A stretch of DNA of 64,000 bases from positions 63,145 through 127,144 of the forward strand of contig CBDICC010000020.1 of the NCBI GenBank assembly GCA_965277185.1. The letters run 5' to 3'. The notes beneath the pieces are model-generated. The model made no database searches, was not told the origin of the DNA, and worked only from the letters and a program-made list of their open reading frames with translations. The stretch is from Cytophagales bacterium. GTDB lineage: Bacteria > Bacteroidota > Bacteroidia > Cytophagales > JAHDFW01. Shown here in pieces: positions 39,321-64,000 of this stretch; position 1 is the stretch's first letter, and each line of letters opens with the position of its first letter. A program made the translations under genes and the position numbers.

Positions 39321-40715
39321 CTAATCTTCTTTGTTTCCAATCTCTTTTACCATTCGAAATGAAACAACTGCTAAAATGATTCCAATCCCTCCAAGGACAC
39401 TCCAAAGTACATAGGGGTCTGATAGAAAGGACTTCTCTTCTTCTTTGACCACTGGTAGACTGTTAGCAGGGATTAAATTCTTAATAGGTCCATGTTTCAC
39501 CGTCGCAATATCCTCCGGAATGTTGGTTCGAAAATAGGTTAAATCATATTTTGGAACCTCCGCTTCATTATCGCTAAACTTCAACGTGTATTGGCCCTGT
39601 GGATTTAAATCTGCAATCAGATAATGTTTCAGAAACGAACCAGTTACTTTTTTGATTTGCAGTGGTTGATCATCATTATTCTGTACTTCAAAATACAACG
39701 TCTTTACTCTTCTGCCTTGCAGATTGAGTTCAAACTCATTAATGCTATTGGAATTGAACTCAAACGATTTGATGTTCTGCCTATAAGTCTTGACCTTTTT
39801 CTTTTTGTCAAAATAGGAATCTTCAATTTGAACCACGCCACTACGTAAATAATAATCAGCTCCTTCTATGTCAAATTGGAGTTTTTCAATGTAGCGTTCC
39901 TGAGGAAACTCAACTTTTAAATAGGTGACTTTGTTGCTGTCTTTTTGCTCGACATTGGCCGCTTCAAATTCATGTCTCTGACCACGTCGTTGTTTGTAAT
40001 CGAAAAATCCAACTTTTTGAATATCAATCGGTAACCTCCAATAGTCGTTCAGTTCCAGTCGAAAATATTCGTAGTTGCTTAGCGGGAAACCAAGAATGTT
40101 GAGTTCGGAAGTTTCGTTTCTACTATACATAGAATGAAGCAGGTAGTCATTTTTAATCACAAACCAGTTTTCTTTATCGTCGCTCCCGCTTAACCGGGCT
40201 CGTTTTCGAACATCCGTATTACGGACTAAAAAGTTGATATTGTCCACCTCATCCCGATTTGGATTATGAAAAATCAAGTAGGAAACTCCATCTTCTACAT
40301 AGTGTTTTTCAATGATTTCATACTCTTTGAACAACCTTGTGGTCTCAAATGGATTTTCATGGTCCATCAAATAAGGAATTTGTTTATTTGATTGATCATA
40401 AATTCGAATGTCCGTCTTGTTTCTTCGGAGCTGTCCAAGAATTTCGGGTGATAAAACAATTTTATGGAACCCGGTATAATTTACTTTGTCAAGCTTCGCC
40501 ATTTTACGAAACCCTTTAATTTCGGGTTGCTCCATTTCTGTATTAGAAGGCTGTGCTAAAAGAGTAGAACTTAAGCCAGTACTGACCAAAGTCAGTACTG
40601 GAATAAGCCATGTCTTAAACAAGAAGCGAAATGCATCGCTTCTTGTTTTATGATTTACCTTAGATTTAGATTTACAATTATATTTCATCACTTTCATCTT
40701 TATCTGTTTCAGCAT
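39321..40715 (-). CDS. DUF3999-like secreted protein with a C-terminal TM anchor (hypothetical)
   Basis: 464 aa with an N-terminal signal peptide ('LIPVLTLVSTGLSSTLLAQ'). The body is beta-rich and ends in a TM helix plus a charged tail ('VLWSVLGGIGIILAVVSFRMVKEIGNKED'). It overlaps the upstream DUF2339-like gene. Confidence 0.45.
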   Translation of the reverse strand: MLKQIKMKVMKYNCKSKSKVNHKTRSDAFRFLFKTWLIPVLTLVSTGLSSTLLAQPSNTEMEQPEIKGFRKMAKLDKVNYTGFHKIVLSPEILGQLRRNKTDIRIYDQSNKQIPYLMDHENPFETTRLFKEYEIIEKHYVEDGVSYLIFHNPNRDEVDNINFLVRNTDVRKRARLSGSDDKENWFVIKNDYLLHSMYSRNETSELNILGFPLSNYEYFRLELNDYWRLPIDIQKVGFFDYKQRRGQRHEFEAANVEQKDSNKVTYLKVEFPQERYIEKLQFDIEGADYYLRSGVVQIEDSYFDKKKKVKTYRQNIKSFEFNSNSINEFELNLQGRRVKTLYFEVQNNDDQPLQIKKVTGSFLKHYLIADLNPQGQYTLKFSDNEAEVPKYDLTYFRTNIPEDIATVKHGPIKNLIPANSLPVVKEEEKSFLSDPYVLWSVLGGIGIILAVVSFRMVKEIGNKED

Positions 40716-45339: not shown

Positions 45340-45804
45340 TTATCTTGTTGGCCGGATATGTCGACAAGCTGAATTCTCCTCAAATTGTATTAAATCAGAC
45401 TCTGCCAAGAACGCTTTTGATTTAGCAATAAAACCTGTTTGTTCCACATCAGAAAGCTCAGAAAGTTTAAAACAAAGATCCGTTTCGCCCTCTCGACCCC
45501 AAGGCACTTTTTGATAAGATACATTCGGATACTCCTTAGCTAAAAACGCTCCATAAGCAGCTTTCTTCTCTCGATCTGTGCCAGCTCCACGACTTGTAAA
45601 TCCCACAATAAAACGGAAGTAATTCGTGGTATCAGCTGCTTCACCATTGACTGCTGGCTCCTTTGTTCCATCGCTGTCTGCAAGTTTTTCCGATTGAGAA
45701 TTGTTTGAATCCGAATCGGCAACTGTTTTCTTTGAACTTTTACAAGACATTGCAACTAGTACAACGCATAAAATGACAAAACTATATTTCAAATGGGAAA
45801 TCAT
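45340..45804 (-). CDS. lipoprotein, hypothetical
   Basis: 154 aa. 'MISHLKYSFVILCVVLVAMSCKSS' is a lipobox-like signal with Cys. A Ser/Asp-rich linker follows. Confidence 0.5.
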   Translation of the reverse strand: MISHLKYSFVILCVVLVAMSCKSSKKTVADSDSNNSQSEKLADSDGTKEPAVNGEAADTTNYFRFIVGFTSRGAGTDREKKAAYGAFLAKEYPNVSYQKVPWGREGETDLCFKLSELSDVEQTGFIAKSKAFLAESDLIQFEENSACRHIRPTR

Positions 45805-45864: not shown

Positions 45865-47163
45865 TTATTTGGTCAAAATAAGCCTTAAATGGCTGCTTTT
45901 GGAATTGTCGCTAGACACGGAAACAAAGTAAACCCCTGCTTCTGCATTGGAAAGATCAATCTCCATGTTTTGCTGGCCTTGAGAAATATGACTGTTGGAA
46001 TAAACAACAGCTCCCAATACATTTCGAACAACAATATTAATGCCAGCAGCAGCATGTCTTGATCCCAATTGCAAATTAAATTTTCCGTTCGTTGGATTTG
46101 GATAAAGCTGTACGGAATATGCGTGGGGTTTATGTGTAATACCGGTAATTGCGGCACAAGAACCAATACTGGTACTTAGAGCAGTTCGAGTCCCTTCTAA
46201 GACGGCACGCATTCGATTTTTTTGTCCGAAGGTAAACATACTCATGCAATTGTCATCTACGTAGTCCATGTAGTTCATGTACATTTCACCATTCGTATCA
46301 CTTCCACAAGTGTTATTGGCATTATGAGGGAATGTTGGACAAAATGAATTATCCTGCTCTTGAGGAGGTGTGTCTGCCACTAAATCATCACCGCAGGTTG
46401 CGTCACCCCAGATATGACTTAAGTTGAGCCAATGTCCAACCTCATGGGTTGCTGTTCGTCCAAGGTTGTTAAATGTAAATCCACCAGTACCTGCCGTACC
46501 TGTTGTTCCAAATGCTCTGTAATCAATTACGATTCCATCATCATTAGGCCAAGCAGCCAAATCTGAAGGAAAAGTAGCGTAACCTAGTGTGCCAGGATCA
46601 CCATCTAAATTGCACACCCACATGTTCATAAATTGTGCAGGGTCCCAATTATCTTTTCCATTGCTGCTACTAAACTTCACATCTCCGTTCCCAGTGAAAT
46701 TGGTGTTCGAAGTGTTGGTTCGGGTTATACCGGTTGTTGCGTCTCCATTTTCATCAATGCTAGCAAGACAAAATTCAATTTGACAATTAGCCGAGTTTGT
46801 CCAAAAGGCGTGACCTAAAGGAAGTGAATCGGAATTTTGCAGGGTAAAATCTGCATTTAATACGTCTATTTGAGATAAAATTTGAGCGTCAGATACATTT
46901 TCCGCCGCCGCATTATATACTACATGTACAACCACCGGAATCCGAATGATTGTGTCACTTAATTTAAGTCCTTGATGTGCAGCAATCCATTGTTGGGTTT
47001 GGGTTTCCAATTGCTGCTTTCGAGCGAGGGCATTTGGATCTTTTTGGGTCCGTTCTTGCCATAATTTAAAGGAAGCACATTTTTCCTGAGCGTGTAAAAC
47101 GCTTGTTGAAAGAATTAAAAGCGCCAATCCACTGAGTAGGTTAAGTAAAGATTTATTCTTCAT
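45865..47163 (-). CDS. M43-family (ulilysin/pappalysin-type) zinc metalloprotease with a T9SS type-A C-terminal sorting domain
   Basis: 432 aa. Signal peptide; mature-domain start 'IIRIPVVVHVVYN'; zinc site 'HEVGHWLNLSH' (HExxHxxGxxH); Met-turn region; C-terminal 'LYPNPTNGKFNLQL...GVYFVSVSS...LRLILTK'. Confidence 0.75.
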   Translation of the reverse strand: MKNKSLLNLLSGLALLILSTSVLHAQEKCASFKLWQERTQKDPNALARKQQLETQTQQWIAAHQGLKLSDTIIRIPVVVHVVYNAAAENVSDAQILSQIDVLNADFTLQNSDSLPLGHAFWTNSANCQIEFCLASIDENGDATTGITRTNTSNTNFTGNGDVKFSSSNGKDNWDPAQFMNMWVCNLDGDPGTLGYATFPSDLAAWPNDDGIVIDYRAFGTTGTAGTGGFTFNNLGRTATHEVGHWLNLSHIWGDATCGDDLVADTPPQEQDNSFCPTFPHNANNTCGSDTNGEMYMNYMDYVDDNCMSMFTFGQKNRMRAVLEGTRTALSTSIGSCAAITGITHKPHAYSVQLYPNPTNGKFNLQLGSRHAAAGINIVVRNVLGAVVYSNSHISQGQQNMEIDLSNAEAGVYFVSVSSDNSKSSHLRLILTK

Positions 47164-52800: not shown

Positions 52801-52903
52801 TATGTGCTTCACGTTATTCATTATGTTGTATTTCAACTTACTTGAAAAACTAGTAGCATTCATTGAACGATTAAGGTTCGGTCTTCCTCATACGGTGGAG
52901 TAG
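49835..52903 (+). CDS. ABC transporter, fused ATP-binding cassette plus ABC-2/ABCG-type permease, with an N-terminal tandem TerB-like domain
   Basis: 1022 aa. The N-terminus 'ALVQLFAIFAKQDDGVTEEERKLVGWF' and 'IVTFNLLEMIAAGGTGITVAEDDFLTTAVDIF' fit the TerB pattern (hydrophobic helix, DG, acidic). Walker A 'GASGSGKSTLLNVLNG', signature 'ISGGQRKRVNIALELL', Walker B 'LFVDEPTSGL'. The C-terminal roughly 450 aa carry about 6 TM helices of ABC-2 type. Confidence 0.75.
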   Translation: MSKEILSALVQLFAIFAKQDDGVTEEERKLVGWFLRQQLNKKSVEEYLAEFDKHAGMSKNTRTKRRSMVSDSTKTLRICGQINKELTHVQKIIVTFNLLEMIAAGGTGITVAEDDFLTTAVDIFNIQKEEFESIREFILSSKLYEVDQENVLLLDALAINDKEHTRHIKIPGLEGVMGVLRITSADIYLIRYLGPQELQLNGMGIRSHKTYVFPNGSTIRNPKTSTIYYSDVVTEFLKDETPNPLSFVAENIQYRFANQKLGLRGVDIKEGSGKLVGIMGASGSGKSTLLNVLNGTEKPSEGSVRINGIDIHQYPKKIEGVIGHIPQDDLLMENLTVFENLYFSAKLCFKDKSKKEIVELVQDTLAKIGLTEIQDLKVGSVLEKMISGGQRKRVNIALELLREPAILFVDEPTSGLSSRDSENIMDLLKELSLSGKLIFVVIHQPASDIFKLFDQLLIMDTGGYPIYYGNPIDSLIYFKQEANQINAEQGECNVCGNVNPEQIFNIVETHVVDEYGNFTEERRVGPEDWNEAYKVNRLKREKEHSEEPEIESEIVRKISIPSLMSQWIIFMKRDVLSKIANKQYLLINFLEAPVLAILLAYIIRYYNASEGNQVYSYAKNENVAAYIFMSIIVALFMGLTVSAEEIINDRRILKRERFLNLSWLSYLYSKVGILFFLSAVQTLTFVLIGNTILGIQGMYFHYWFMLFSISCFANLLGLNISASFRSVVTIYILIPLLLIPQIILSGVVVNFDKLNPSLSSVNSVPLIGDAMASRWAFEGIAVQQARNNDYTQQMYPFDQKLAQLNYGKIYHLPHLKKDLDYCVNHLGEPITAHKINVLHSEISKISDKISGAEFAHEDELTLEKFDAAMAEEIKVYLDQIKHYYILSYNDVIEQKQAYLRDLNAKDPNFLQNLKKEHYNVTLDDMVQNAEEDERIFEDEGELLQKIYQIYQEPRSKNLLDYRAQFYLPQKHFMGVHFDTFWFNLSVIWFMCFTLFIMLYFNLLEKLVAFIERLRFGLPHTVE

Positions 52904-54175: not shown

Positions 54176-54215
54176 ATAAAAAAAGGCAGTCAATGAATAA
54201 ATGTCATTGACTGCC
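54176..54215 (-). terminator. rho-independent terminator of the 54263..56413 metalloprotease gene
   Basis: Perfect 12-bp stem ggcagtcaatga(54185-54196)/tcattgactgcc(54204-54215) with a 7-nt loop. On the minus strand it is followed by T7-T9 (the plus-strand A-run is at 54176-54184). Confidence 0.6.
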
Positions 54216-54262
54216 TATCTTAAATTAAATTAAATAGTATTTTCTATTCGATCTATTTGATT

Positions 54263-56413
54263 TTAGAATCGAATTACTTTTTTCGTAATCGTACCAGACT
54301 GAGTTTTGATTTTAACAAAATATACACCAGAATTGGATACATCAATTAGCTCGCTTAGCTTAACTGTGTGACGACCGTTTGCGTAGAAAGCAGTGTTGCT
54401 ATAAAGTTGAGCTCCAACCACGTTATATACGCTGATTTCCATGTCAGATCCTTTCATCACATTCAAGTTAATGTTTGCATCATCACTAAATGGATTTGGA
54501 TATACATCCATAAATACATTTTGCTCTTCAGCAATACCAACTTTGTCACTGCATCCTACGTTAATGTCATCAATGTAGAAGTAGTTTCCACCTCCTGTAG
54601 TAAATTCAATTTTTACAAGGATATTGTCCTGACCAGCATATTGAGAAAGACCAATTACCTCTTCATTCCATTGCTCAGATGTAGGAATAAAATCCGAAGT
54701 ATTGTTATCACTTCCAGAAGTGTTTATTCCACTTGCAGAAGCAGCATGTACAAATGTCCAGTTTTCACCACAATTTTTACTTACGTAAATTCCAATTTGA
54801 TCTACACTTCCACTAAAACGAGGAGCATATGCGTATTTGTAGCTCATTTCAAAACAATCGGCATTTGTGAAATCAATAGTAGGGGAAGTCATGGAGTATA
54901 CATAGTTACTCCCAACACCCGATAGTTTTAAGCTGTAACTTAACAAACCAGAAGCGGAAGCCTTGTCACTTAAAGTCCAAGATGCATTTTGATGTCCATC
55001 TGCTACTACCCATTCTTTCACAGGATCAGAAACTGTTGGGAAATTACCGTTTTCAAAGTTTTCATAGAAAGGAGCTTCTTCTCCGCCTGCTACTGCACCT
55101 ACCGTAATAATACTGGTCTTGCTATTTTCATCAGAACCACCAGAATTGGAAGCCGTTAATTTTACCGTATACGTTCCAGGATTTGGATATGCATATACAG
55201 GATCTTGATCCGTAGAAGTTCCAGTACCATCACCAAAATCCCATGCCCACGTATCAGGAGTACCATCGTATGAAATATCCGTAAATGTTACGTTTGCATT
55301 TGCACAAACTAAATCATCACTCCACTGAAATTCAGCAGTTGGAGGGTAATTGTAAGGTCCACATGTATCACAATTTCCTGTCGAGATCAAGTTACTTTCA
55401 GTCCAGATATTGGTTCGACCATTATATGGAGAAGAAGATAAAGTAGATCGCACATATGCTTTCTGACCATTTGTAAAGTTTTCAGCAGAACAAAATGCGT
55501 AATCCATGATGTTGTTAATGTTGTCATGAATTTCACCATTACCTGCAGGCCATACATCGTATGTGTCAAGGTAGTCTCTAAAAGGTACTGGAGAATCACT
55601 ACAAGAATTACGTGTTGTACTTAACCCACTTGTACAATTGTAAGAATTCCCTCTAGTATTTGGAGTGTCGTCAATACCATCATCTAAACTACAGTTCGTA
55701 GATAAATCAGCATCGTTGCTAGGACCCCATGGGTGCTCTAGTCCTAACCAGTGTCCACATTCGTGAGCTAAATCGGTTAACTGATTATTTAACATTACAA
55801 TTCCATCCAAATTGTTGGAAATTCCAGGAAGATGAGACCATCCACCAGCGCCAGAAGCAATACTTCTTACAATCCAAATGTTTAGATATCTAGTGTTATC
55901 CCACTGAACAACGCTTTTTACAGTGTTTGAAGCATCAACGGTAAGAGGAGTGTGATTTAGGGTAATTCCTTGCGTCAAGTTTCCAGCCGGATCTTTACTA
56001 GCCAATACAAATTCAATATTAGTGTTCCCTGAGATCAAATCAAAAGGAGCTTGGATGCTTAAACTATCTTCATTTCGGAAGTGTGCATTGATCTCATCCA
56101 TAGCGTTAAAATATCTTGAACGATTATTAATGAAATCAGTATAAACCGATCCATAATCATGCATAATATGAATTACCACAGGAATTTTGTAAACATATTC
56201 TCCCGTTTTAACTCCAGGGTTAGCTTTTTGCTTTGCCACATATTTTCTGTAAAGATCATGTGTGATTTGATGTTTTAAGCTAAGTGTTGGATCTTGAGCA
56301 CGTGCCTCGGCATCATGTTCCGACTGGCTACAAGTCCGATGATTCGTCTGCGATGATTGACCAAAAGCAATCACACTGCTAATAACCCCTAATAGTAAAA
56401 ATAACTTTTTCAT
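54263..56413 (-). CDS. M43-family zinc metalloprotease with a PKD domain and a T9SS type-A C-terminal sorting domain
   Basis: 716 aa. Signal peptide; 'YKIPVVIHIMHD'; zinc site 'HECGHWLGLEHPWGP'; PKD 'WAWDFGDGTGTSTDQDPVYAYPNPGTYTVKLTASN'; C-terminal 'VYPNPFSDDANINL...GVYFVKIKTQSGTITKKVIRF'. Confidence 0.8.
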   Translation of the reverse strand: MKKLFLLLGVISSVIAFGQSSQTNHRTCSQSEHDAEARAQDPTLSLKHQITHDLYRKYVAKQKANPGVKTGEYVYKIPVVIHIMHDYGSVYTDFINNRSRYFNAMDEINAHFRNEDSLSIQAPFDLISGNTNIEFVLASKDPAGNLTQGITLNHTPLTVDASNTVKSVVQWDNTRYLNIWIVRSIASGAGGWSHLPGISNNLDGIVMLNNQLTDLAHECGHWLGLEHPWGPSNDADLSTNCSLDDGIDDTPNTRGNSYNCTSGLSTTRNSCSDSPVPFRDYLDTYDVWPAGNGEIHDNINNIMDYAFCSAENFTNGQKAYVRSTLSSSPYNGRTNIWTESNLISTGNCDTCGPYNYPPTAEFQWSDDLVCANANVTFTDISYDGTPDTWAWDFGDGTGTSTDQDPVYAYPNPGTYTVKLTASNSGGSDENSKTSIITVGAVAGGEEAPFYENFENGNFPTVSDPVKEWVVADGHQNASWTLSDKASASGLLSYSLKLSGVGSNYVYSMTSPTIDFTNADCFEMSYKYAYAPRFSGSVDQIGIYVSKNCGENWTFVHAASASGINTSGSDNNTSDFIPTSEQWNEEVIGLSQYAGQDNILVKIEFTTGGGNYFYIDDINVGCSDKVGIAEEQNVFMDVYPNPFSDDANINLNVMKGSDMEISVYNVVGAQLYSNTAFYANGRHTVKLSELIDVSNSGVYFVKIKTQSGTITKKVIRF

Positions 56414-56517
56414 AATGACATTATTTGATGGTAAAATAGAAAATGAATTCGGGTAAATCTTTTAAGAATTTAACCGAAAACATCTACATTATCGTTTTTT
56501 ATCCCCTTCGTTCAAAA

Positions 56518-58653
56518 TTAATACTTAATCAACTTACGGGTAACATTTTGTCCTTGTGTATTAAGTGATACAAAATAAACACCTTTTTCCAATTTGGCAA
56601 GAATTTCAGGTCGTAAATCATTGCTTCCAGTACGTAATGTTACTTGTTCCGAATGGAGCAATTGTCCAACAGTATTACGAATGGTCAATTGTGTTTGCTG
56701 AGTACTGGCAGATTCAATATGCAATGTGGCAGATTGATCAAACGGATTTGGGAAGATGGAGAAATGATTAAATAAAACATCCTCAATCCCTGTAATGTCT
56801 GCACATCCTACATTGATATCATCTAGGTAGATGTAATTTCCTCCACTACCTGTACCAACTTCTATTCGTAATAAAATATGATCCTGACCAGCAACAGATG
56901 TTAATGAAACATTTGCTTCCTCCCATTGAGAACTGTCTGGTACAAACACTCCACTATAAAAATTACCATTTACAGTACTCAAATTGCTTCCGCTTCGGCT
57001 AAATACTTTTGTCCATTTTTGACCGCAATTTTTACTTGCATAAACGTTCAATTCATCGTTTTCTGCTGTTTGAAATTGTTCTGCGTATGCATATTTAAAT
57101 GTAAGATTCAAGCAGTTCGAGGCATCAGAAAAATCAATCGTTGGAGAGAGAAGTTCCACAGAATGTCCCGGAGGCATATTTCCTAGACGTAGCGAGATGG
57201 ATTTAGACCCAGAAGATGCAGCGGCAGTTGTCACGGCAAACTTGGATGATGTTGTACTTGAGATTGCCCAATCCTTTTCAGGTACGCTTCCGCTAGGAAA
57301 TCCTGAATTTTCAAAACTCTCAACAACCGGCGCAATTTCACCACCTACGGTTGCTAATACCGTAATGATACCAAATTTAGTTTCCGTATTTCCTCCAAAG
57401 GAGTTGGTAGCGGTTAGCTTTACAGTATAAGTACCTGTAGTCGTATATGTGTGCGCTGGGTTTTCATCGCTAGATACATTCCCATCTCCGAAATCCCAAG
57501 AATACGTATCAACGTCCGCGTTGTAAGTAAAGTTGGTAAATTGGATGGCTGCATTTTGACAAACAGTTTCAGCATCGTAAATAAAATCTGGAATAGGTTT
57601 ACAAGCTCCAGTAGTGGAAGTGTCGGTTGTACCTGTCGCAATTAAGTTTGCTTCTGTCCAAAGGTTATCTCGGCTAGACACCCCGGACTCTAATGTTCCA
57701 CGCATCCACAATTTCTGTCCTTCTGTAAAGTTTTCTGCTGAACAAAAAGCATAGCCCATGTAATTTTGAACATTGTCATACAATTCACCACTTGACGAAG
57801 GCCACAATACGGTATTGTCCATTTTTAGAAATGGAATTGGGTCTCCAGGACATGAATTCGGAACAGTGTTTCCACAGCTTTGTGCTCCAATTGTATTTGG
57901 TGTATCGTCTACTCCATCGTCGAAATTACAGTTGGACGCAACTCCTGGGTCATTGGTTGGTCCCCAAGGGTGATCCAATCCTAAATAATGTCCTAATTCA
58001 TGGATTAAAGAGCTTAATTGCCCTGCCAGAATTACGATCCCGTCACTGGTTGCATTGATTGGTGGAGTAAAAGAATATCCACCTGCACCACTTGCAATTG
58101 TTTTAACCACCCAAACATTCAAATATTTAGATCGATCCCACGTAGGAGCAACGCTTGATTTCATTCCTTCTCCTCCGGCATTGGTCCAAGTAGGGGAATA
58201 AACTCTATTGATTCCTCCCGTACATTCACCATTTGGGTCAATTTTTGCGAGTTGAAGTTCAATTCTTGTATCAGGATGAATCTGGTCAAAAGGAGATTGA
58301 ATAAAAGATGTATCCGCATTTCGCTTTCTAAATGCGTCATTGGTTTCTTTGATTGTAGCTAAAATTGTTTGTTCAGATATATTTGCCGTTCCATATTCAT
58401 GAATTACATGAAATACAACTGGAATCCGATAAAGTGGCTCAGCTGTTTTATTTCCCGATTGCCTGTGTTGCTCTGTATATGCTTTTCGAAACTGATTTAG
58501 CTTCGCTTTTTCAACCTCATACTGTGGGTTATTTTGAATAAACTCATCGGACATGGAATGGGTGTGACACCATCCAGATCCAGTCTGGTTTTGGGCAAAC
58601 GCAAAATTCAAACCAATGATTCCTGCAAATGCCAGTAGTAAACTTTTTTTCAT
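56518..58653 (-). CDS. M43-family zinc metalloprotease with a PKD domain and a T9SS type-A C-terminal sorting domain (paralog)
   Basis: 711 aa. 'YRIPVVFHVIHE'; 'HELGHYLGLDHPWGP'; PKD 'YSWDFGDGNVSSDENPAHTYTTTGTYTVKLTATN'; C-terminal 'IFPNPFDQSATLHI...GVYFVSLNTQGQNVTRKLIKY'. Confidence 0.8.
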   Translation of the reverse strand: MKKSLLLAFAGIIGLNFAFAQNQTGSGWCHTHSMSDEFIQNNPQYEVEKAKLNQFRKAYTEQHRQSGNKTAEPLYRIPVVFHVIHEYGTANISEQTILATIKETNDAFRKRNADTSFIQSPFDQIHPDTRIELQLAKIDPNGECTGGINRVYSPTWTNAGGEGMKSSVAPTWDRSKYLNVWVVKTIASGAGGYSFTPPINATSDGIVILAGQLSSLIHELGHYLGLDHPWGPTNDPGVASNCNFDDGVDDTPNTIGAQSCGNTVPNSCPGDPIPFLKMDNTVLWPSSSGELYDNVQNYMGYAFCSAENFTEGQKLWMRGTLESGVSSRDNLWTEANLIATGTTDTSTTGACKPIPDFIYDAETVCQNAAIQFTNFTYNADVDTYSWDFGDGNVSSDENPAHTYTTTGTYTVKLTATNSFGGNTETKFGIITVLATVGGEIAPVVESFENSGFPSGSVPEKDWAISSTTSSKFAVTTAAASSGSKSISLRLGNMPPGHSVELLSPTIDFSDASNCLNLTFKYAYAEQFQTAENDELNVYASKNCGQKWTKVFSRSGSNLSTVNGNFYSGVFVPDSSQWEEANVSLTSVAGQDHILLRIEVGTGSGGNYIYLDDINVGCADITGIEDVLFNHFSIFPNPFDQSATLHIESASTQQTQLTIRNTVGQLLHSEQVTLRTGSNDLRPEILAKLEKGVYFVSLNTQGQNVTRKLIKY

Positions 58654-58759
58654 AACAACTAGATTTAATTATATTATAAAACTCCAAAGAAACTATTTTG
58701 GTTCATTTAGCTACTTAGCTAGTGCCTATGCGACTAAATGAACACCATTCTTATGTGTC

Positions 58760-60892
58760 TTAGAATTGGATAATTTTCTTGTAAAAATGCGTTTGACCTT
58801 GTCGAGATCCTGAATTTTCAGATTTGATCGATAAGAAATAAACCCCTTTACCTTCTAATTCCTGAGAAGGAATAAGCACATTGTTGGCTCCAGGAGTACT
58901 AAGTATATTTCGAGAATATACTTGCTTACCAATTGAATTGAATACTTCCATCGTTAGATTCTCGACTACTCCAGTGTTAAATTCGACATTAAATGATCCG
59001 CTGGAAGGGTTTGGATGCACATTGAAAGCATTATTTGTAAATTCTTCAGTGACATCCAAGAAGTTCGAAGCATCCGCACATCCGATATTGATGTCATCCA
59101 CATATATAATGTTCCCTGCACCGCTAATCGCTTCAAAACGAACTAATACATGATCGTCTCCAACATAACTGCTAATATTGATTTCTGTTTCACGCCATTC
59201 ATCATCGCTTTGTGGAACATATGAGTAGGAAATTAAATCAGATGTAGTAGCCAATTGTCCACCCGAAACGAAGTACGCTACGTCCCAGCTTTTTCCGCAA
59301 TCGGTAGAGATCATTACTTTTAAAACATCATTGTCAAACGCAGTTTTTTGTGCGTATGCGTGACGGAAAGTAATGGTATTACAATTCATTACCGTTGAAA
59401 AATCAAGATATGGACTAATAATACTGGAACTTTCTCCGGTTGGGATAGAGGAGTTTTTCACTCGTACACTTTGATTTCCTGTAGAACTGGCAAAGCTATT
59501 CTGAATCCATCCAGAAGTAGAAGTATTAACCAAGCTCCATGATTCATCAAGATTGTTGAAGATGTCATCAGATTCAAACCCTTCACCATAAGGAGAAGGT
59601 AAACTTTGATCTGTACCTATTACTTCTATATAGGAAGTTCGAGTAGTGGTATCGGAACCATATGTATTATTTGTAACAGCAAGTGTTACTTGATAAATTC
59701 CAGGTGTGTTGTAAATGATGGAAGGGTTCGTTGCCGATGAAGTGGCAGGAGTACCTCCTTCAAAATCCCAAGCATAGCTATGTACTGTTTCACCAAAGGA
59801 TTCATCCGCGAACAATACGTTCTCGCCTTGACAAACGATTTGAGTATTTGAAGCAAAATCAGCCGTAGGTGGACACGTTACTATGGAATGACCATCTTCC
59901 GTACCTGTTTCAAGTCGATTGGTAGGTGTCCATAGATTATTTCTGCCATTAACCGAATTATTAAGCGTAGCACGCACATAATCCATTTGACCATTTGTAA
60001 AGTTCTCAGCTGAACAGAATCCATAATCCATTATGTTTTGAGCATTGTCAATTACATCCCCAGTCCAGTAAGTTACTCCAGCGGTATCTACATAAGTTAC
60101 ATCTGTGCAAGAGTTACGACTAGTAGAACAAAAAGACTGACCTAATGTATTTGGCGTATCGTCGATGTCGTCATCCAAACTACAATTTCCTGAAGCATTT
60201 GCGTCATTAGAAGGTCCCCATGGATGATTTAATCCTAACCAATGACCAGCTTCGTGACTCAATGCAGATAATTGACCGTATCGAACGACGATTCCATCAA
60301 TATTGTCGTTTACTGGAGGAGTATAAGAATAACCTCCTGCTCCACTACCAATATTACGAACTACCCAAATATTTAAGTATTTTTCATTATCCCATCTAAC
60401 GAGATTTTTCACGCCATCATCAGCTCCAGAAGTCATTGAAGATTGAGTTCTAGTGATTCCGTTTGAACATTTTCCGTCAGGATCAAGTCGAGCTCTTCTA
60501 AATTCAATACGCGTATCAGGATGGAAATTTCGAAATGGGAGTACTACGTTGACTGAATCGGCATTGTCCTTTCGGAAATCGCGATTCATGAAATCAATTG
60601 CGCTCTGTACCGTATTCTCAGAGATGTTTTCCGGACCATTATCATGTATTATATGAAAAACAATTGGAATGACTAATACAGGCTCTCCAGTCTTATTTGC
60701 AGAATAATGTGAGGCAATATAAGATTTAATTGAAGCCTTATATTGATCTCGCTTGATTAAAAGTGACGGATCTTCCGCAGCTCGTTCGTCCCACTTGGAA
60801 TGTGCGTGACACCAGTTTGTAATTTGTTGAGCTTCCGAGGAAGCCATGCAAATGGTAAGTATACCAAAAACAATAAGTACCCTTCTCATCAT
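58760..60892 (-). CDS. M43-family zinc metalloprotease with a PKD domain and a T9SS type-A C-terminal sorting domain (paralog)
   Basis: 710 aa. 'LVIPIVFHIIHD'; 'HEAGHWLGLNHPWGP'; PKD-like 'YAWDFEGGTPATSSATNPSIIYNTPGIYQVTLAVTN'; C-terminal 'VHPNPSSGSFNVEF...GVYFLSIKSENSGSRQ...KKIIQF'. Confidence 0.8.
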   Translation of the reverse strand: MMRRVLIVFGILTICMASSEAQQITNWCHAHSKWDERAAEDPSLLIKRDQYKASIKSYIASHYSANKTGEPVLVIPIVFHIIHDNGPENISENTVQSAIDFMNRDFRKDNADSVNVVLPFRNFHPDTRIEFRRARLDPDGKCSNGITRTQSSMTSGADDGVKNLVRWDNEKYLNIWVVRNIGSGAGGYSYTPPVNDNIDGIVVRYGQLSALSHEAGHWLGLNHPWGPSNDANASGNCSLDDDIDDTPNTLGQSFCSTSRNSCTDVTYVDTAGVTYWTGDVIDNAQNIMDYGFCSAENFTNGQMDYVRATLNNSVNGRNNLWTPTNRLETGTEDGHSIVTCPPTADFASNTQIVCQGENVLFADESFGETVHSYAWDFEGGTPATSSATNPSIIYNTPGIYQVTLAVTNNTYGSDTTTRTSYIEVIGTDQSLPSPYGEGFESDDIFNNLDESWSLVNTSTSGWIQNSFASSTGNQSVRVKNSSIPTGESSSIISPYLDFSTVMNCNTITFRHAYAQKTAFDNDVLKVMISTDCGKSWDVAYFVSGGQLATTSDLISYSYVPQSDDEWRETEINISSYVGDDHVLVRFEAISGAGNIIYVDDINIGCADASNFLDVTEEFTNNAFNVHPNPSSGSFNVEFNTGVVENLTMEVFNSIGKQVYSRNILSTPGANNVLIPSQELEGKGVYFLSIKSENSGSRQGQTHFYKKIIQF

Positions 60893-61132
60893 TTTATTAT
60901 AGTTTAAATTAATGAATTAAATATTGGTGGTAATACGACTTTCCCTACGTATACGATATGTTCGCTTAAGTTTACTTTGCGTAACGAAAACTTAAATGCT
61001 TCGCAATATAAGCAAATTAATTACAAATCAATTCCAATTTTAGTTCAAATCGACCAAAGAAAATAGCTATTCGACGAACATATTAGTGTTAAAATAACGG
61101 TCTGTTTTATAGCTTGTTAAGGGGGAAAGGTT

Positions 61133-61166
61133 GAAAAAAAAAGAGCCTGACATTTGTCAGGCTCTC
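61133..61166 (-). terminator. rho-independent terminator of the 61195..63324 metalloprotease gene
   Basis: Stem agagcctgac(61142-61151)/gtcaggctct(61156-61165) with a 4-nt loop. The plus-strand A9 run at 61134-61142 gives a T9 run after the hairpin on the minus strand, 30 nt after the stop. Confidence 0.6.
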
Positions 61167-61194
61167 CAGTCTTTTGAATATGTTCTATTTCTTA

Positions 61195-63324
61195 TTAGAA
61201 TTTCACAATTTTTCTGGTTACGAAATCATCTCCATTTCCAATTCGTAAGAAGTAAACACCATTATCTAATTTCATTAAAGAAGACAACGCAAAATTGTTT
61301 TTACCCGCTGTAAATACTTTTTGCTTGTTGTAAATAACTTTACCAACCACGTCCACAATTTGAATGTTCATTGTGTTGGTCTTACTTAAGTTTAACTCAA
61401 TAAAAGCATCTTCTTCAAACGGATTTGGGTAAATGCTAAGATCAGTGCTTAGAGATTCTTCAATTCCTGTCGTTTTACAACCTATATCAATATTGTCTAG
61501 ATAAAAATAATTTCCAGCACCGGTAGTTAATTCAAATTTAATTAATCCATGATCTCTACCTACAAGAGAAATTAAAGAAACGGTTTCCCTTTTCCATTCA
61601 GTATCTGTAGGGGTAAATATTCCAGAAATTAAGTTGCCTCCAACGGTTGAAAGAGTACTGGCAGGTCTGGCAAGTAATAAATTCCAAGTAACACCACAAT
61701 CACGACTAGAATAAACACGCAATTCATCGGAACTCAATGAAGTTCGCTGCGCGTAAGCATAATCAAATGTCATGTCATTACAATCCGCATTGGTGAAATC
61801 CAGAGTAGGAGATATTATTTCGTATTCATAGAAACTTCCAATCGAAGACAGCTTTAAAGCGAAACTCGCATCTAAACTGGAAGAAACACTTGTATTACGG
61901 GTCCAGCTTGAATTGTTATTTCCGTTTATAACGGTCCATTCCTTATTAGGGTCTGAAACCGTTGGGAAATTTTCATCTTCGAAGTTCTCAACAAAAGGAG
62001 CAACTTCGCCACCGGACGTAGGCAATACATTTATAAAGTTTGTTTTCGTATGTGTGTTTGGATTTGATCCATCACTAACCGTCAATGAAACAGTATACGT
62101 TCCTGCTGTAGCAAATAAAACGTTACTAGGATTTTGTACATTTGAAGTTGTTCCATTTCCAAAATCCCATAACCATGAAGTGATTGTACCTCCACCAGAC
62201 AAGTCCGTAAATTGAAGCGTAGAACCTTCACATAGTATTTCCTGGCAATTACTTTCCTTAAAATTAGCACATGGAGTTTCAACAAAAGCATCATCGGTCC
62301 CGGTAGCAATTAAATTGGCACTGGTATACAAATCTTTTAGCTCAACACTTCCAGCTAAAGCAGCATCTGTTCTTTCTTTTTGACCTAAACTAAACATATT
62401 TTGGCAATCGGCATAACTCATGTAATTTTCAATAGGATTTACTGGATTGCTTGGTAAGCCTCCGTCTAAACCAGTTCCCGAGTCATTACAATTATTCAAG
62501 GAAGTAGGGCATCCAAATGTGGCTTGAGCTTCTTGAGGTGTGTCACAAACTTCATCACCTCCGGAAGTACAACTATTCGTACATCCATCTTGATGCGTAT
62601 GATACAATCCAAAGCAATGACCGATCTCATGTGTGGCAGTACGACTATTAGAATTGCTAAATTCAGAAGCAATTACAACAAATCCGAAGGTGTTTAGGGA
62701 ACTTCCAAATCCAGTCCAACTTGGGAACTGTGCATAACCTAAAGTTATACCTCCGCCAAAGCCACCATCAATACTTTGTACAACCCAAATATTGAAATAT
62801 TTGGTAGCATTCCAGTAACTAACTGATTTTACAGCATCATCTGCATCATACGTAAGATCGGAATTGGAACGCGTAATACCGCTGGTGCAATTTCCATTTG
62901 GATCTATTTTAGCAAGCTTAAATTCCACTTCTAAATCCGTTGCATAAGGCTTGAAAACGGCCCTGGTATCAACGGTGTCTGAATTCTCTCTTCTGAAATC
63001 TTCGTTTAACGTTTCTACCGATGCTTTTATTTGCGCATCTGTAATGATATCACTACAAGAATTAGCAGGGTTTATAATGTGAACTACAATGGGAATCGTA
63101 TAAGAAGCAGGTCCGGTTCCTTTGTTTCCAGTTGGATGAGTATCGATCCACTCTCGTACTTTCTGATTGTAATGATCACGTTGCAATTGGAGGTTCGGAT
63201 CTTGAGCAGCTTTCTCTTGAAACTTTGATTCCGCTGCACACCAGCCTGGACCTCTTTGAGCAATACCGTTAAATGGCATTAAGGCAATAATTCCCAATAA
63301 AAGGAATAAGTAATTTTTTTTCAT
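61195..63324 (-). CDS. M43-family zinc metalloprotease with a PKD domain and a T9SS type-A C-terminal sorting domain (divergent paralog)
   Basis: About 710 aa from the ATG at 63324 ('MKKNYLFLLLGIIALMPFNGIAQ'). The ORF-track extension to 63393 is unlikely. 'YTIPIVVHIINP'; zinc site 'HEIGHCFGLYHTHQD' (ulilysin-like); PKD 'WLWDFGNGTTSNVQNPSNVLFATAGTYTVSLTVSD'; C-terminal 'IYPNPFEEDAFIEL...GVYFLRIGNGDDFVTRKIVKF'. Confidence 0.8.
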   Translation of the reverse strand: MKKNYLFLLLGIIALMPFNGIAQRGPGWCAAESKFQEKAAQDPNLQLQRDHYNQKVREWIDTHPTGNKGTGPASYTIPIVVHIINPANSCSDIITDAQIKASVETLNEDFRRENSDTVDTRAVFKPYATDLEVEFKLAKIDPNGNCTSGITRSNSDLTYDADDAVKSVSYWNATKYFNIWVVQSIDGGFGGGITLGYAQFPSWTGFGSSLNTFGFVVIASEFSNSNSRTATHEIGHCFGLYHTHQDGCTNSCTSGGDEVCDTPQEAQATFGCPTSLNNCNDSGTGLDGGLPSNPVNPIENYMSYADCQNMFSLGQKERTDAALAGSVELKDLYTSANLIATGTDDAFVETPCANFKESNCQEILCEGSTLQFTDLSGGGTITSWLWDFGNGTTSNVQNPSNVLFATAGTYTVSLTVSDGSNPNTHTKTNFINVLPTSGGEVAPFVENFEDENFPTVSDPNKEWTVINGNNNSSWTRNTSVSSSLDASFALKLSSIGSFYEYEIISPTLDFTNADCNDMTFDYAYAQRTSLSSDELRVYSSRDCGVTWNLLLARPASTLSTVGGNLISGIFTPTDTEWKRETVSLISLVGRDHGLIKFELTTGAGNYFYLDNIDIGCKTTGIEESLSTDLSIYPNPFEEDAFIELNLSKTNTMNIQIVDVVGKVIYNKQKVFTAGKNNFALSSLMKLDNGVYFLRIGNGDDFVTRKIVKF

Positions 63325-63626
63325 AACAACAACATTTAGTTTAAAGTATGTTAAGTAGCTTATAAAAGATAATAAAGCACTTAACAATAACAAATAGGAC
63401 TATAAAACTACGAAAAACTGTCGGATCTACAATAGATAAAAGGCAAAATGAAATATATCACTTTACTAAGAAGTATGTATTAGAACGAAGCGTTCCTAAT
63501 TTTAAACTAATAAGATGTAATTAGAGGGAAATAAACAAAAACAAAAAGGAATTGCTAAAGGAATGCGTTTTTTAGAGCAGAGCGCGAAAATTTGTTAAAG
63601 AGGTACAAAATCCTCTTTAAGCAAAA

Positions 63627-63664
63627 CGCTCGGATCCTCTGCCTTGTGACAAAGAATCCGAGCG
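63627..63664 (-). terminator. terminator candidate downstream of the partial paralog
   Basis: Stem cgctcggat(63627-63635)/atccgagcg(63656-63664) with a 20-nt loop. On the minus strand it is followed by TTTTGCTT. It lies about 60 nt after the stop at 63723. Confidence 0.35.
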
Positions 63665-63722
63665 AGTTCAGTTTGTTTCTATTTGGGGAAAACCTTTTTA
63701 AATAAAGGAATTCTAGTCCGTT

Positions 63723-64000
63723 TTAGAATTTAACAATTTTTTTAGTAACACTTTCGTCTCCTTTTCCAATTCGTAAGAAGTATACTCCATTTTCCAATGT
63801 GGTAAGTGAAGATAGCGTAAAACTGTTTTTTCCAGCAGAAAATACTTTTTGCTCGTTGTAAAGGGTCTTACCAACTACATCTACAATTTGTATATTCATT
63901 GTTTTCGCTTGATCAATGTCAAATTCAATAAGTGCGTCTTGATCAAAAGGATTTGGATAAACGCTAAGCGCATTGGAAAGTGATTCCTTGATTCCAGTTG
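63723..64000 (-). CDS. 3' end (C-terminal roughly 90 aa) of a further M43/T9SS paralog, truncated by the window edge
   Basis: Minus-strand translation from the stop at 63723-63725 gives '...VYPNPFDQDALIEFDIDQAKTMNIQIVDVVGKTLYNEQKVFSAGKNSFTLSSLTTLENGVYFLRIGKGDESVTKKIVKF'. This is a near-copy of the C-terminus of 61195..63324, and the DNA is highly similar to 61195-61470. Confidence 0.65.
   Translation of the reverse strand, partial: TGIKESLSNALSVYPNPFDQDALIEFDIDQAKTMNIQIVDVVGKTLYNEQKVFSAGKNSFTLSSLTTLENGVYFLRIGKGDESVTKKIVKF

What the first reader, a model, noticed from the sequence alone, without database searches (positions are those of the whole stretch)
54263..64000. Head-to-tail array of at least five paralogous M43 metalloprotease-PKD-T9SS genes, each apparently monocistronic
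Four complete genes and one truncated by the window edge share the same architecture: signal peptide, propeptide, M43 catalytic domain with HExxHxxGxxH, PKD, a beta-sandwich, then a T9SS type-A tail. They are about 710 aa each. Active-site-proximal residues are diversified (HECGHW.., HELGHY.., HEAGHW.., HEIGHCF..), which is consistent with substrate-specificity radiation after duplication. Clean hairpin-plus-T-run terminators follow at least two of them. A sixth, shorter M43/T9SS gene lies at 45865-47163.
Basis: partly seen in the sequence, partly recalled or inferred. Interest (0 to 1): 0.55.

Follow-up and report, generated by a model that had tools for sequence, protein, structure and literature searches.

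The report
Tandem array of secreted M43 zinc-protease genes
This is a head-to-tail row of old, diverged gene copies for secreted zinc proteases of a well-known family in a Bacteroidota bacterium; such rows turn out to be common in this phylum, so the finding is real but ordinary.

Summary
Four complete minus-strand genes (709-716 aa) each encode a signal peptide, a prosegment with a conserved cysteine, an M43 (pappalysin/ulilysin-type) catalytic domain, a PKD domain, a MAM/"choice-of-anchor J"-like beta-sandwich and a type-A T9SS sorting domain. A fifth gene shows only its last 91 residues, which are the T9SS tail. The copies are 37-43% identical, so they are not assembly duplicates.

Sequence and predicted fold match ulilysin and mirolysin (E down to 6e-38, TM 0.71-0.79). 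All catalytic residues are intact.

- **Monocistronic genes:** strong terminators follow only g5, g4 and g1. g3-g2-g1 are separated by 104-106 nt without a convincing terminator.
- **Diversified HExxH positions:** these positions vary across the whole family. The inferred S1' position is the same in g1-g3 and differs only in g4 and in the short sixth gene.

Tandem runs are the norm. Of 46 fully flanked loci from other Bacteroidota, 23 carry two or more head-to-tail copies, and one genome has five. A syntenic relative has three copies. Public sources already name such proteins "M43 family zinc metalloprotease". Verdict: a new member of a known kind, of low interest.

The parts
54263..56413 (-). 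g1: 716-aa M43 zymogen-PKD-beta-sandwich-T9SS CTD gene. Zinc motif HECGHWLGLEH at 55733-55765, Met-turn NIMDY at 55499-55513, prosegment Cys28 at 56330-56332.
   Evidence: The orthologue in the syntenic locus L001 (10001-12124) is 55% identical, with bootstrap 100.
56518..58653 (-). g2: 711-aa paralogue. Zinc motif HELGHYLGLDH at 57970-58002, Met-turn NYMGY at 57751-57765, prosegment Cys29 at 58567-58569. This is the only copy that passes the MAM and choice-of-anchor-J thresholds.
   Evidence: AlphaFold2 model pLDDT 89.2. Fold matches to ulilysin and mirolysin, TM 0.71-0.79.
58760..60892 (-). g3: 710-aa paralogue. Zinc motif HEAGHWLGLNH at 60224-60256, Met-turn NIMDY at 60023-60037, prosegment Cys28 at 60809-60811.
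   Evidence: The orthologue L001 5235-7388 is 56% identical, with bootstrap 100.
61195..63324 (-). g4: 709-aa paralogue, with its start taken at the ATG that aligns with the other copies. Zinc motif HEIGHCFGLYH at 62599-62631, Met-turn NYMSY at 62413-62427, prosegment Cys29 at 63238-63240. It is the copy closest to ulilysin by sequence.
   Evidence: (ulilysin E 5.6e-38).
63723..64000 (-). g5: 3' end only (last 91 codons plus stop) of a further T9SS cargo gene. Its type-A CTD is 70% aa and 76% nt identical to that of g4. The rest lies beyond the window.
54184..54216 (-). Intrinsic-terminator-like hairpin (13-bp stem) plus T-run after g1, at the end of the array.
   Evidence: z -6.0.
61140..61167 (-). 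Intrinsic-terminator-like hairpin (12-bp stem) plus T9 run after g4.
   Evidence: z -3.8.
63627..63664 (-). Intrinsic-terminator-like hairpin (17-bp stem) plus a short T-run after g5.
   Evidence: z -4.2.
58701..58743 (-). Hairpin in the g3-to-g2 spacer (about 11-bp stem, no U-run). It is not a convincing terminator.
   Evidence: z -1.5. The strict scan did not report it.
56414..56517 (-). g2-to-g1 spacer, 104 nt, without significant structure. A perfect Bacteroidota-type -7 box (TAATTTTG) overlaps the g2 stop codon, 107 nt before the g1 ATG.
   Evidence: z 0.17. Calling it a promoter is inference only.
45865..47163 (-). g6: separate, shorter (432 aa) M43 + T9SS CTD gene without PKD or beta-sandwich. 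Its motif is HEVGHWLNLSH (Asn at the Gly position, as in ulilysin) and it has the canonical M-D-Y-V-D-D-N-C S1' loop.

Best explanation
The region is a chromosomal head-to-tail array of anciently duplicated, still functional paralogues. They encode secreted 'lower pappalysin' (MEROPS M43, ulilysin/mirolysin/cytophagalysin-type) zinc endopeptidases of an uncultured Bacteroidota bacterium.

Each product is probably made and used as follows.
1. It crosses the inner membrane through Sec, using an N-terminal signal peptide that ends ...A-Q.
2. It folds in the periplasm as a latent zymogen. A roughly 50-residue two-helix prosegment lies over the cleft, and its conserved cysteine caps the catalytic zinc (a cysteine switch).
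3. The type-A C-terminal domain is recognised by the type IX secretion system, which exports the protein. The tail is then cut off, and the enzyme is either released or attached to the cell surface.
4. The prosegment is removed, and the metzincin catalytic domain (three His, the Glu general base, the Met-turn and the Tyr switch) becomes active.
5. The PKD and MAM/cleaved-adhesin-like beta-sandwich domains probably serve as spacer and substrate- or surface-binding modules.

The likely role is extracellular protein degradation for nutrition.

Shown here: domain content, intact catalytic residues, the fold, the divergence and age of the copies, and how common such arrays are. Inferred from characterised relatives: cysteine-switch latency, T9SS dependence, the fate of the CTD, the role of the accessory domains and the physiological role.
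For: Family and fold:
- Pfam Peptidase_M43, PKD and Por_Secre_tail are all above curated cut-offs in g1-g4. TIGR04183 is above its cut-off in all five tails.
- Sequence matches to solved structures: g4 against ulilysin E 5.6e-38 and mirolysin 2e-36; g2 against mirolysin 1e-21.
- The AlphaFold2 model of g2 has pLDDT 89.2. Foldseek places it with ulilysin, mirolysin and proulilysin at E about 1e-16, with target-normalised TM 0.71-0.79. The beta-sandwich matches MAM domains, CBMs and the Kgp K2 cleaved-adhesin domain.

Conserved residues in 127 full-length homologues:
- The H, E, G, H and H of HExGHxx[N/G/D]LxH are in 127/127.
- The Met-turn Met is in 125/127 and the Tyr switch in 127/127.
- The prosegment Cys is in 126/127, often as C-G-T-[D/E], like mirolysin's C23-G24-S25-E26 (PMC6949598).
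- Four conserved Cys in the C-terminal subdomain fit the two disulfides of mirolysin and CPL1 (PMC6949598, PMC11674741).

Age and ancestry:
- The paralogues are 37-43% identical.
- g1 and g3 each have a bootstrap-100 orthologue in the syntenic three-copy array of GCA_020627945.1.
- dS is saturated.

Commonness: 23 of 46 fully flanked loci from other Bacteroidota carry head-to-tail runs of two or more copies, and L030 has five.

T9SS use by this genome: two other T9SS cargo genes lie in the same window.
Against: - No experiment bears on this locus. No T9SS machinery gene lies in the window, so T9SS dependence rests on the CTD alone.
- The window's four genes lack the Cys-Gly dipeptide of the mirolysin switch (they have C-S, C-H, C-H and C-A). 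I could not measure the Cys-to-zinc-site distance in the model.
- The S1' Asp described as conserved across pappalysins (PMC6949598) has no aligned counterpart in g1-g3, so specificity cannot be carried over from ulilysin or mirolysin.
- Only g2 passes the curated thresholds for the beta-sandwich domain.
- g5 is known only from its tail.
Confidence: 0.82

Rival explanations
1. The array is an assembly artefact or a very recent duplication, with near-identical copies collapsed or expanded by the assembler.
For: None beyond the regular spacing of about 2.2-2.5 kb.
Against: Protein identity is 37-43% and nucleotide identity about 60%. dS is above 2 between copies. Orthologues of individual copies exist in another genome with conserved flanking genes. 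Even the most similar pair, the g4 and g5 tails, has dS 1.28.
Confidence: 0.01
2. The transcription architecture differs from the reader's: g5 and g4 are monocistronic, but g3-g2-g1 form one operon that ends at the strong terminator after g1.
For: There is no strict terminator in the 106-nt and 104-nt spacers, and their folding z-scores are only -1.5 and 0.17. In other genomes the spacers inside such runs are short (median 41 nt), which suggests co-transcription is usual for this family.
Against: Spacers of about 105 nt are long enough for a promoter. A perfect Bacteroidota -7 box (TAATTTTG) lies 107 nt upstream of g1. The g3-to-g2 spacer does hold an 11-bp hairpin. Neither promoters nor terminators can be established from sequence alone.
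Confidence: 0.45
3. The proteins are catalytically dead adhesins or surface proteins that only keep a protease-like fold, as in the T9SS-dependent inactivated M6-like family.
For: They have large non-catalytic C-terminal parts (PKD and an adhesin-like beta-sandwich similar to the gingipain K2 domain). g1-g3 lack the canonical S1' Asp.
Against: Every catalytic residue (three His, Glu, the Met-turn Met and the Tyr switch) is intact in all four copies and essentially invariant in 127 homologues. dN/dS estimates are below 0.3, but dS is saturated, so this is weak evidence.
Confidence: 0.04
4. The array is a specialised attack battery, for virulence, algicidal or predatory action against a host or prey, rather than a general nutritional degradome. 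The paralogues would have diverged under diversifying selection for different targets.
For: M43 orthologues between the two syntenic genomes have about twice the dN of the flanking housekeeping genes (0.38-0.49 against 0.20-0.23) and lower identity (48-56% against 65-87%). Copy number differs between relatives (at least 5 against 3). T9SS M43 proteases are listed among candidate pathogenicity factors of an algicidal Bacteroidota (PMC12998431), and mirolysin is a virulence factor (PMC8259862).
Against: Faster evolution is usual for secreted proteins. The inferred S1' position is the same in g1-g3. The family and its tandem pairs occur across many free-living Bacteroidota from water, soil and sludge MAGs. 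The Fpp1/Fpp2 metalloproteases, encoded by tandem genes in F. psychrophilum, were suggested to be nutritional, and their mutants kept virulence (PMC4333118).
Confidence: 0.15

Closest known systems
Mirolysin of Tannerella forsythia (MEROPS M43, lower pappalysin; PDB 6R7U/6R7V/6R7W)
   Same: It is a Bacteroidota secreted zymogen with an N-terminal cysteine-switch prosegment and a metzincin catalytic domain with Met-turn, Tyr switch and two disulfides. It is described as a secretory protease of a T9SS-bearing organism. The sequence match is E 1e-21 to 2e-36 and the fold match is TM 0.71-0.78.
   Different: - Mirolysin has no PKD or MAM-like domains.
- Its gene is co-transcribed with an upstream potempin inhibitor gene (PMC9890683). 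No ORF of 60 aa or more lies in the array spacers here.
- It has Asp at the Gly position of the zinc motif and Asp289 in the S1' pocket (PMC6949598). g1-g4 have Gly, and g1-g3 have no aligned Asp.
- Identity is only 25-28%.
Ulilysin / lysargiNase of Methanosarcina acetivorans (PDB 2CKI, 3LUM, 8CDB)
   Same: It is the best sequence match of g4 (E 5.6e-38) and among the best fold matches of g2 (proulilysin TM 0.79, rmsd 3.6 A). The zinc-binding and Met-turn architecture is the same.
   Different: Ulilysin is archaeal, has no T9SS tail and no PKD or MAM-like domains. Its motif has Asn at the Gly position, and its M-D-Y-V-D-D-K-C loop carries the S1' Asp. In this window only g6 keeps that loop.
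Cytophagalysin CPL1 (Cytophaga sp. L43-1) and the F. psychrophilum relatives WA-1/WA-2
   Same: This is a multidomain Bacteroidota lower pappalysin. It has a signal peptide, a two-helix prosegment with a putative switch cysteine (C24), an ulilysin-like catalytic domain, Ig-like domains and a C-terminal domain resembling a T9SS CTD (PMC11674741). The overall design matches g1-g4, and CPL1 has gelatinolytic activity that the Glu-to-Ala mutant abolishes.
   Different: CPL1 is 1282 aa with eight Ig-like domains. The proteins here are about 710 aa, with one PKD and one MAM/choice-of-anchor-J-like domain. I did not compare the sequences directly with CPL1.
fpp2-fpp1 tandem metalloprotease genes of Flavobacterium psychrophilum (Perez-Pascual et al. 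2011, as cited in PMC4333118)
   Same: It is a precedent for adjacent extracellular metalloprotease genes in a Flavobacteriia genome. A nutritional role was suggested, and the mutants showed no loss of virulence.
   Different: It is only a pair. I did not verify the peptidase families of Fpp1 and Fpp2 here; my recollection that Fpp2 is an M43 enzyme is untested. The primary paper is not in the searchable library.
Unnamed public homologues annotated 'M43 family zinc metalloprotease', 'PKD domain-containing protein' or 'T9SS type A sorting domain-containing protein'
   Same: They have the same length (about 690-720 aa) and the same Pfam architecture in more than 1,300 database proteins. Half of the fully flanked loci from other species have the same head-to-tail arrangement.
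   Different: The nearest non-self relatives are only about 41% identical to g2. The best orthologues are 48-56% identical. A copy number of at least four or five is at the top of the range seen.

Membership tests
MEROPS M43 / pappalysin family (Pfam PF05572), 'lower pappalysin' subgroup | Significant match to the family profile, above the curated threshold. | tested here: met
   PF05572 scores are 33.0, 42.7, 33.8 and 67.5 bits for g1-g4 and 56.8 bits for g6, against a cut-off of 23.
MEROPS M43 / pappalysin family | Extended metzincin zinc-binding motif H-E-x-x-H-x-x-G/N-x-x-H/D, with three zinc ligands and the catalytic Glu. | tested here: met
   It is present in g1-g4 (with Gly) and in g6 (with Asn). 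The H, E, H and H are invariant in 127 homologues.
MEROPS M43 / pappalysin family | Met-turn methionine, with a tyrosine two residues downstream (the Tyr switch). | tested here: met
   N-[I/Y]-M-x-Y is present in all copies. Family-wide, Met is in 125/127 and Tyr in 127/127.
MEROPS M43 / pappalysin family | Catalytic-domain fold superimposable on ulilysin or mirolysin. | tested here: met
   For the g2 model (pLDDT 89.2), Foldseek gives E 3e-16 to 3e-15 and target-normalised TM 0.71-0.79. Only g2 was modelled.
MEROPS M43 / pappalysin family | N-terminal prosegment with a zinc-capping cysteine (cysteine switch), typically in a Cys-Gly dipeptide. | tested here: inconclusive
   A single Cys 7-8 residues after the predicted signal-peptide end is present in all copies and in 126/127 homologues. 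The following Gly is present in about 40% of homologues but in none of g1-g4. The Cys-zinc geometry could not be measured, and latency was not tested.
MEROPS M43 / pappalysin family | Conserved Asp at the bottom of the S1' pocket (mirolysin Asp289, five residues after the Met), which gives Arg/Lys P1' specificity. | tested here: not met
   This is not met in g1-g3, which have a shorter loop, Y-[A/G]-F-C. In g4 (Y-A-D-C) the result is ambiguous. g6 meets the feature (Y-V-D-D-N-C). The test is by alignment only. It bears on specificity, not on family membership as Pfam or MEROPS define it.
MEROPS M43 / pappalysin family | Two disulfides and structural calcium site(s) in the C-terminal subdomain. 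| tested here: inconclusive
   Four Cys (g2 C242, C260, C268, C304) are invariant or nearly so in 56 homologues, which fits two disulfides. Their pairing and the calcium ligands were not examined.
T9SS cargo with type-A C-terminal sorting domain (TIGR04183 / PF18962) | C-terminal domain of about 75 residues that matches the type-A profile above the curated threshold, at the very end of the protein. | tested here: met
   TIGR04183 scores are 53.1, 47.1, 31.4, 53.7 and 55.1 bits (g1-g5) and 39.3 bits (g6), against a cut-off of 23. PF18962 is above 27 bits in all. The g2 model shows an all-beta C-terminal domain.
T9SS cargo with type-A C-terminal sorting domain | An N-terminal Sec signal peptide. 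| tested here: inconclusive
   The N-termini have the form MKK + hydrophobic stretch + A-x-A/G-Q, and Gln at about position 21 is at least 90% conserved. No signal-peptide predictor was available. Reading this as the Bacteroidota 'Q-rule' rests on my own knowledge.
T9SS cargo with type-A C-terminal sorting domain | The genome encodes a T9SS, and secretion depends on it. | not testable with these tools
   No T9SS machinery gene was identified in the window. Two other CTD-bearing cargo genes are present (3643-8358 type B; 17240-19888 type A). Dependence needs a mutant.
PKD domain (PF18911 / PF00801) | Profile match above the curated threshold. | tested here: met
   PKD_4 scores 49.8-65.7 bits against a cut-off of 27 in g1-g4. 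There are sequence matches to the ColH PKD domains.
MAM (PF00629) / choice-of-anchor J (NF038128) beta-sandwich | Profile match above the curated threshold. | tested here: inconclusive
   Only g2 meets it (MAM 33.1 against 26.4; choice_anchor_J 38.4 against 30). g1 and g3 are below the cut-off, and g4 has no hit. The domain is about 40% identical among g1-g4. The g2 model matches MAM, CBM and the Kgp K2 cleaved-adhesin folds.
KLIKK-peptidase / potempin modules (T. forsythia) | The peptidase gene lies immediately downstream of, and is co-transcribed with, a lipoprotein inhibitor gene of 118-152 residues. | tested here: not met
   There are no ORFs of 60 aa or more on the coding strand in the array spacers. 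The 154-aa lipoprotein-like ORF lies downstream of g6, not upstream, and its few homologues are not consistently next to M43 genes.

The most novel reading that the evidence does not exclude
The roughly 700-aa M43-PKD-beta-sandwich-CTD proteins of Bacteroidota may form a distinct subgroup of lower pappalysins. In this subgroup the S1' aspartate, described as conserved across pappalysins, is usually replaced, and the loop after the Met-turn is often two residues shorter (83 of 127 homologues). The enzymes would then not be Arg/Lys-P1'-specific. The conserved tandem pairs and larger arrays would encode complementary cleavage specificities. In this window that would mean at least three classes: g1-g3 with Phe, g4 with Asp, and g6 with the canonical loop.
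Probability: 0.3. Interest if true: 0.35.

Novelty: new member of a known kind. Interest (0 to 1): 0.2.

Why it matters
The finding has little importance as a discovery. It adds four or five diverged members to a large, already annotated family of T9SS-secreted M43 metalloproteases.

It has modest practical value. It documents that head-to-tail runs of these genes are the rule in Bacteroidota, with an ancient pair and repeated lineage-specific expansions. It also flags that the S1' determinant known from ulilysin and mirolysin is not conserved in this subgroup. If the copies do differ in specificity, such arrays could be a source of proteases with new cleavage preferences, in the way ulilysin became the proteomics enzyme lysargiNase. 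They would also inform models of protein turnover by environmental Bacteroidota.

Tried and rejected
- **Recovering the source contig to read g5 and whatever lies beyond the window.** Exact look-ups of g4, g2 and g1 found no record. A 47-nt exact pattern from the g5 tail found nothing in the JGI metagenome contigs. The GTDB representative scan did not return the source genome; its best match was 39% identical.
- **Naming the organism from cluster membership.** The proteins are singletons with no names.
dS is saturated or undefined for all full-length comparisons, so it is not informative.
- **Sigma-70 promoter scan.** It found 34 sites against 34.4 expected, which is no signal, and it is the wrong consensus for Bacteroidota in any case.
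- **Potempin-like inhibitor genes.** There are none in the spacers. The 154-aa lipoprotein-like ORF next to g6 has only three homologues. One pair sits after an M32 peptidase gene and another sits in an unrelated context. I dropped this lead.
- **Bootstrapping.** A first Biopython run timed out. I replaced it with a numpy Kimura-distance NJ bootstrap.
- **Horizontal acquisition.** GC content (0.36-0.39) matches the rest of the window and there are no tRNA genes. Flanking synteny with L001 also argues for a native locus.


Full report
**What is there.** On the minus strand, 54263-63324 holds four complete ORFs of 716, 711, 710 and 709 aa. I call them g1 to g4, numbered from the downstream end of the array.
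- The mechanical ORF for g4 starts at a TTG at 63393. The ATG at 63324 gives an N-terminus (MKKNYLFLLL...) that aligns with the other copies.
- A fifth frame (g5) runs off the window. Its last 91 codons (63723-63998) are visible.
- GC content (0.36-0.39) matches the rest of the window, and there are no tRNA genes.

**Domain content.** Each of g1-g4 passes Pfam's curated thresholds for Peptidase_M43, PKD/PKD_4 and Por_Secre_tail. Each also passes NCBIfam's threshold for the T9SS type-A sorting domain.
- The g5 fragment is a type-A sorting domain and nothing more can be seen of it.
- Between PKD and the tail lies a beta-sandwich of about 180 residues. Only g2 passes the MAM and choice-of-anchor-J thresholds for it. 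The domain is about 40% identical among the four copies, so it is homologous in all of them.
- The shorter gene at 45865-47163 (g6, 432 aa) is M43 plus a T9SS tail only.

**Not duplicates of assembly.** Pairwise protein identity among g1-g4 is 37-43%, and nucleotide identity is about 60%.
- By domain, mean identity is 44% for the catalytic domain, 40% for PKD, 40% for the beta-sandwich, 31% for the prosegment and 29% for the T9SS tail.
- The exception is the pair of g4 and g5 tails. They are 70% identical in protein and 76% in DNA, within a 288-nt direct repeat of 74% identity at a spacing of 2528 nt.
- g5 is therefore probably the closest paralogue of g4. Even so, dS for that stretch is 1.28.

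**Family membership.**
- By sequence, g4 matches ulilysin at E 5.6e-38 and mirolysin at 2e-36. g2 matches mirolysin at 1e-21.
- An AlphaFold2 model of g2, built on 56 homologues, has mean pLDDT 89.2.
- Foldseek against the PDB puts ulilysin, mirolysin, promirolysin and proulilysin on top, at E about 1e-16 and target-normalised TM 0.71-0.79.
- Matches for the beta-sandwich follow: MAM domains of meprin and RPTP-mu, carbohydrate-binding modules and the K2 'cleaved adhesin' domain of Lys-gingipain.

**Conserved residues.** I extracted 127 full-length homologues from 81 loci. Among them:
- The H, E, G, H and H of HExGHxx[N/G/D]LxH are invariant.
- The Met-turn methionine is present in 125 and the downstream tyrosine in 127.
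- A single cysteine shortly after the signal peptide is present in 126.
- All of these residues are present in g1-g4 and in g6.

The published structures show that in mirolysin this cysteine (Cys23, in C-G-S-E) binds the catalytic zinc and keeps the zymogen latent. They also show that Met284, Tyr286 and two disulfides have the roles inferred here (PMC6949598, PMC8259862). Cytophagalysin is predicted to have the same layout plus Ig-like domains and a T9SS-like C-terminal domain (PMC11674741). The window's genes have C-S, C-H, C-H and C-A instead of C-G. The switch is therefore inferred, not shown.

The variable x positions of the zinc motif (L/C/A/I and Y/W/W/C in the window) vary in the same way across the whole family: V 64, I 36, A 17 and others at the first; W 59, Y 41, C 12, F 9 at the second. 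They are not evidence of a local radiation.

A more relevant position is the S1' aspartate of mirolysin, Asp289, five residues after the Met-turn methionine. It explains the Arg/Lys P1' preference and is described as conserved across pappalysins (PMC6949598).
- By alignment, g6 keeps the canonical loop (M-D-Y-V-D-D-N-C).
- g4 has a loop two residues shorter, with Asp before the Cys (Y-A-D-C).
- g1-g3 have Y-[A/G]-F-C, with no Asp.
- Family-wide, 83 of 127 members have the short loop, and the residue before the Cys is variable.

Any specificity differences in the window therefore lie between g1-g3, g4 and g6, not among all the copies. This rests on alignment only.

**Transcription units.**
- Terminator-like hairpins followed by T-runs lie after g5, g4 and g1. 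They fold far better than shuffled controls, with z -4.2, -3.8 and -6.0.
- The g3-to-g2 spacer (106 nt) holds a hairpin without a U-run (z -1.5).
- The g2-to-g1 spacer (104 nt) has no significant structure (z 0.17).
- A perfect Bacteroidota-type -7 box (TAATTTTG) overlaps the g2 stop codon, 107 nt upstream of g1. This is only a consensus match.

'Each monocistronic' is therefore supported for g5 and g4 and remains open for g3-g2-g1.

**Relatives and age.** The closest database proteins to g2, apart from its own neighbours, are only about 41% identical.

One of the closest relatives lies in GCA_020627945.1 (locus L001). There, three such genes stand head to tail, followed by a 4HBT thioesterase, a small ORF, an ABC transporter and an M24 aminopeptidase. 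The same genes flank the window's array.
- Flanking orthologues are 65-87% identical between the two genomes. The best M43 pairs are 48-56% identical.
- dN is about twice as high in the M43 genes, 0.38-0.49 against 0.20-0.23.
- In a neighbour-joining analysis with 200 bootstraps, g1 pairs with the third L001 gene (100%) and g3 pairs with the first (100%). All seven genes form one clade (82%).

The duplications therefore predate the split of these two genomes. Copy number and order changed afterwards.

**How common such arrays are.** A scan of GTDB species representatives returned 80 loci, mostly MAGs of Flavobacteriales, Cryomorphaceae, Crocinitomicaceae, Schleiferiaceae, Hymenobacteraceae and unclassified Bacteroidia.
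- tblastn with the catalytic domains found two or more copies in 43 of the 80.
- Counting complete genes, 23 of 46 loci with at least 2.5 kb on both sides have a head-to-tail run of two or more. Four have three, and one end-truncated locus (L030) has five.
- The median spacer within runs is 41 nt.
- The tree shows an old pair, with two large clades to each of which many genomes contribute one gene, plus repeated lineage-specific expansions.

The window's array is at the upper end of the size range but is not different in kind.

**Mechanism and role.** The likely route is as follows.
1. Sec export.
2. Periplasmic folding as a cysteine-switch zymogen.
3. Recognition of the type-A tail by the T9SS.
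4. Export, with removal of the tail.
5. Activation by loss of the prosegment.
6. Extracellular proteolysis, with the PKD and adhesin-like domains acting as spacer or binding modules.

The steps after domain identification are inferred from mirolysin, ulilysin, cytophagalysin and general T9SS knowledge (PMC6949598, PMC8259862, PMC11674741). The window holds two other T9SS cargo genes but no recognisable T9SS machinery gene. A nutritional role is the default. The Fpp1/Fpp2 metalloproteases, encoded by tandem genes in F. psychrophilum, were suggested to be nutritional, and their mutants kept virulence (PMC4333118). M43 T9SS proteases have also been listed as candidate pathogenicity factors elsewhere (PMC12998431).

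**Comparison with known systems.** These are members of MEROPS M43 (lower pappalysins) by profile, motif and fold. One departure concerns specificity, namely the missing S1' Asp in g1-g3. They are not KLIKK/potempin-type modules, because no inhibitor-sized ORFs lie in the spacers. A 154-aa lipoprotein-like ORF next to g6 has only three homologues, with no consistent link to M43 genes.

**Verdict.** The array is a new member of a known kind, and public sources already name its homologues M43 family zinc metalloproteases. Interest is low.

Noticed in passing
window 45340-45804 (-): A 154-aa ORF with a lipoprotein-like N-terminus (...LVAMSC) lies 60 nt downstream of the short M43/T9SS gene g6. 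It has no Pfam or PDB match and only three database homologues. One pair sits directly after, and overlaps, an M32 peptidase gene. Another lies between a DUF423 gene and PEPCK. There is no consistent link to M43 genes, so the idea that it is a potempin-like inhibitor is unsupported.
   Followed up: partly
window 49835-52903 (+): A 1022-aa ABC transporter carries an N-terminal TerB (tellurite-resistance) domain fused to ABC_tran and ABC2_membrane. The fusion-sized gene (1018 aa) is conserved next to the M43 array in the syntenic locus L001.
   Followed up: no
window 25708-30783 (-) and 30950-33052 (-): A 1691-aa protein with DUF3686 ('ATPase involved in DNA repair', 609 bits), DUF7902 and an AAA_5 domain lies just downstream of a 700-aa ORF with no Pfam match. 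The pair was not examined further.
   Followed up: no
window 3643-8358 (-) and 17240-19888 (-): Two further T9SS cargo genes are present. One encodes a 1571-aa protein with a type-B (CHU_C) tail and an Ig_7 domain. The other encodes an 882-aa protein with a type-A tail and no other recognisable domain.
   Followed up: no
window 39321-43479 (-): Adjacent genes encode DUF2339 (a 933-aa predicted membrane protein) and a weak DUF3999 match (464 aa). Their function is unknown.
   Followed up: no
window 46414-46446 (-), in g6: The zinc motif of g6 is HEVGHWLNLSH, with Asn in place of the metzincin Gly, as in ulilysin. Family-wide, Asn is actually the commonest residue at this position (68 of 127), while g1-g4 have Gly.
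   Followed up: yes
window 58641-58670 and 63312-63341: The start regions of g2 and g4 (the start codon plus about 17 nt upstream) are 87% identical over 30 nt. This is more than the roughly 60% identity of the genes overall. It may reflect a conserved translation-initiation context, or it may be chance.
   Followed up: no
L030 3430-14165 (MAG Bacteroidetes bacterium Ww66, JAHEMF010000009.1): This is the only other locus found with five head-to-tail family genes. In the tree they fall into the two ancient clades, three in one and two in the other. It is an independent expansion, not related to the window's array.
   Followed up: partly
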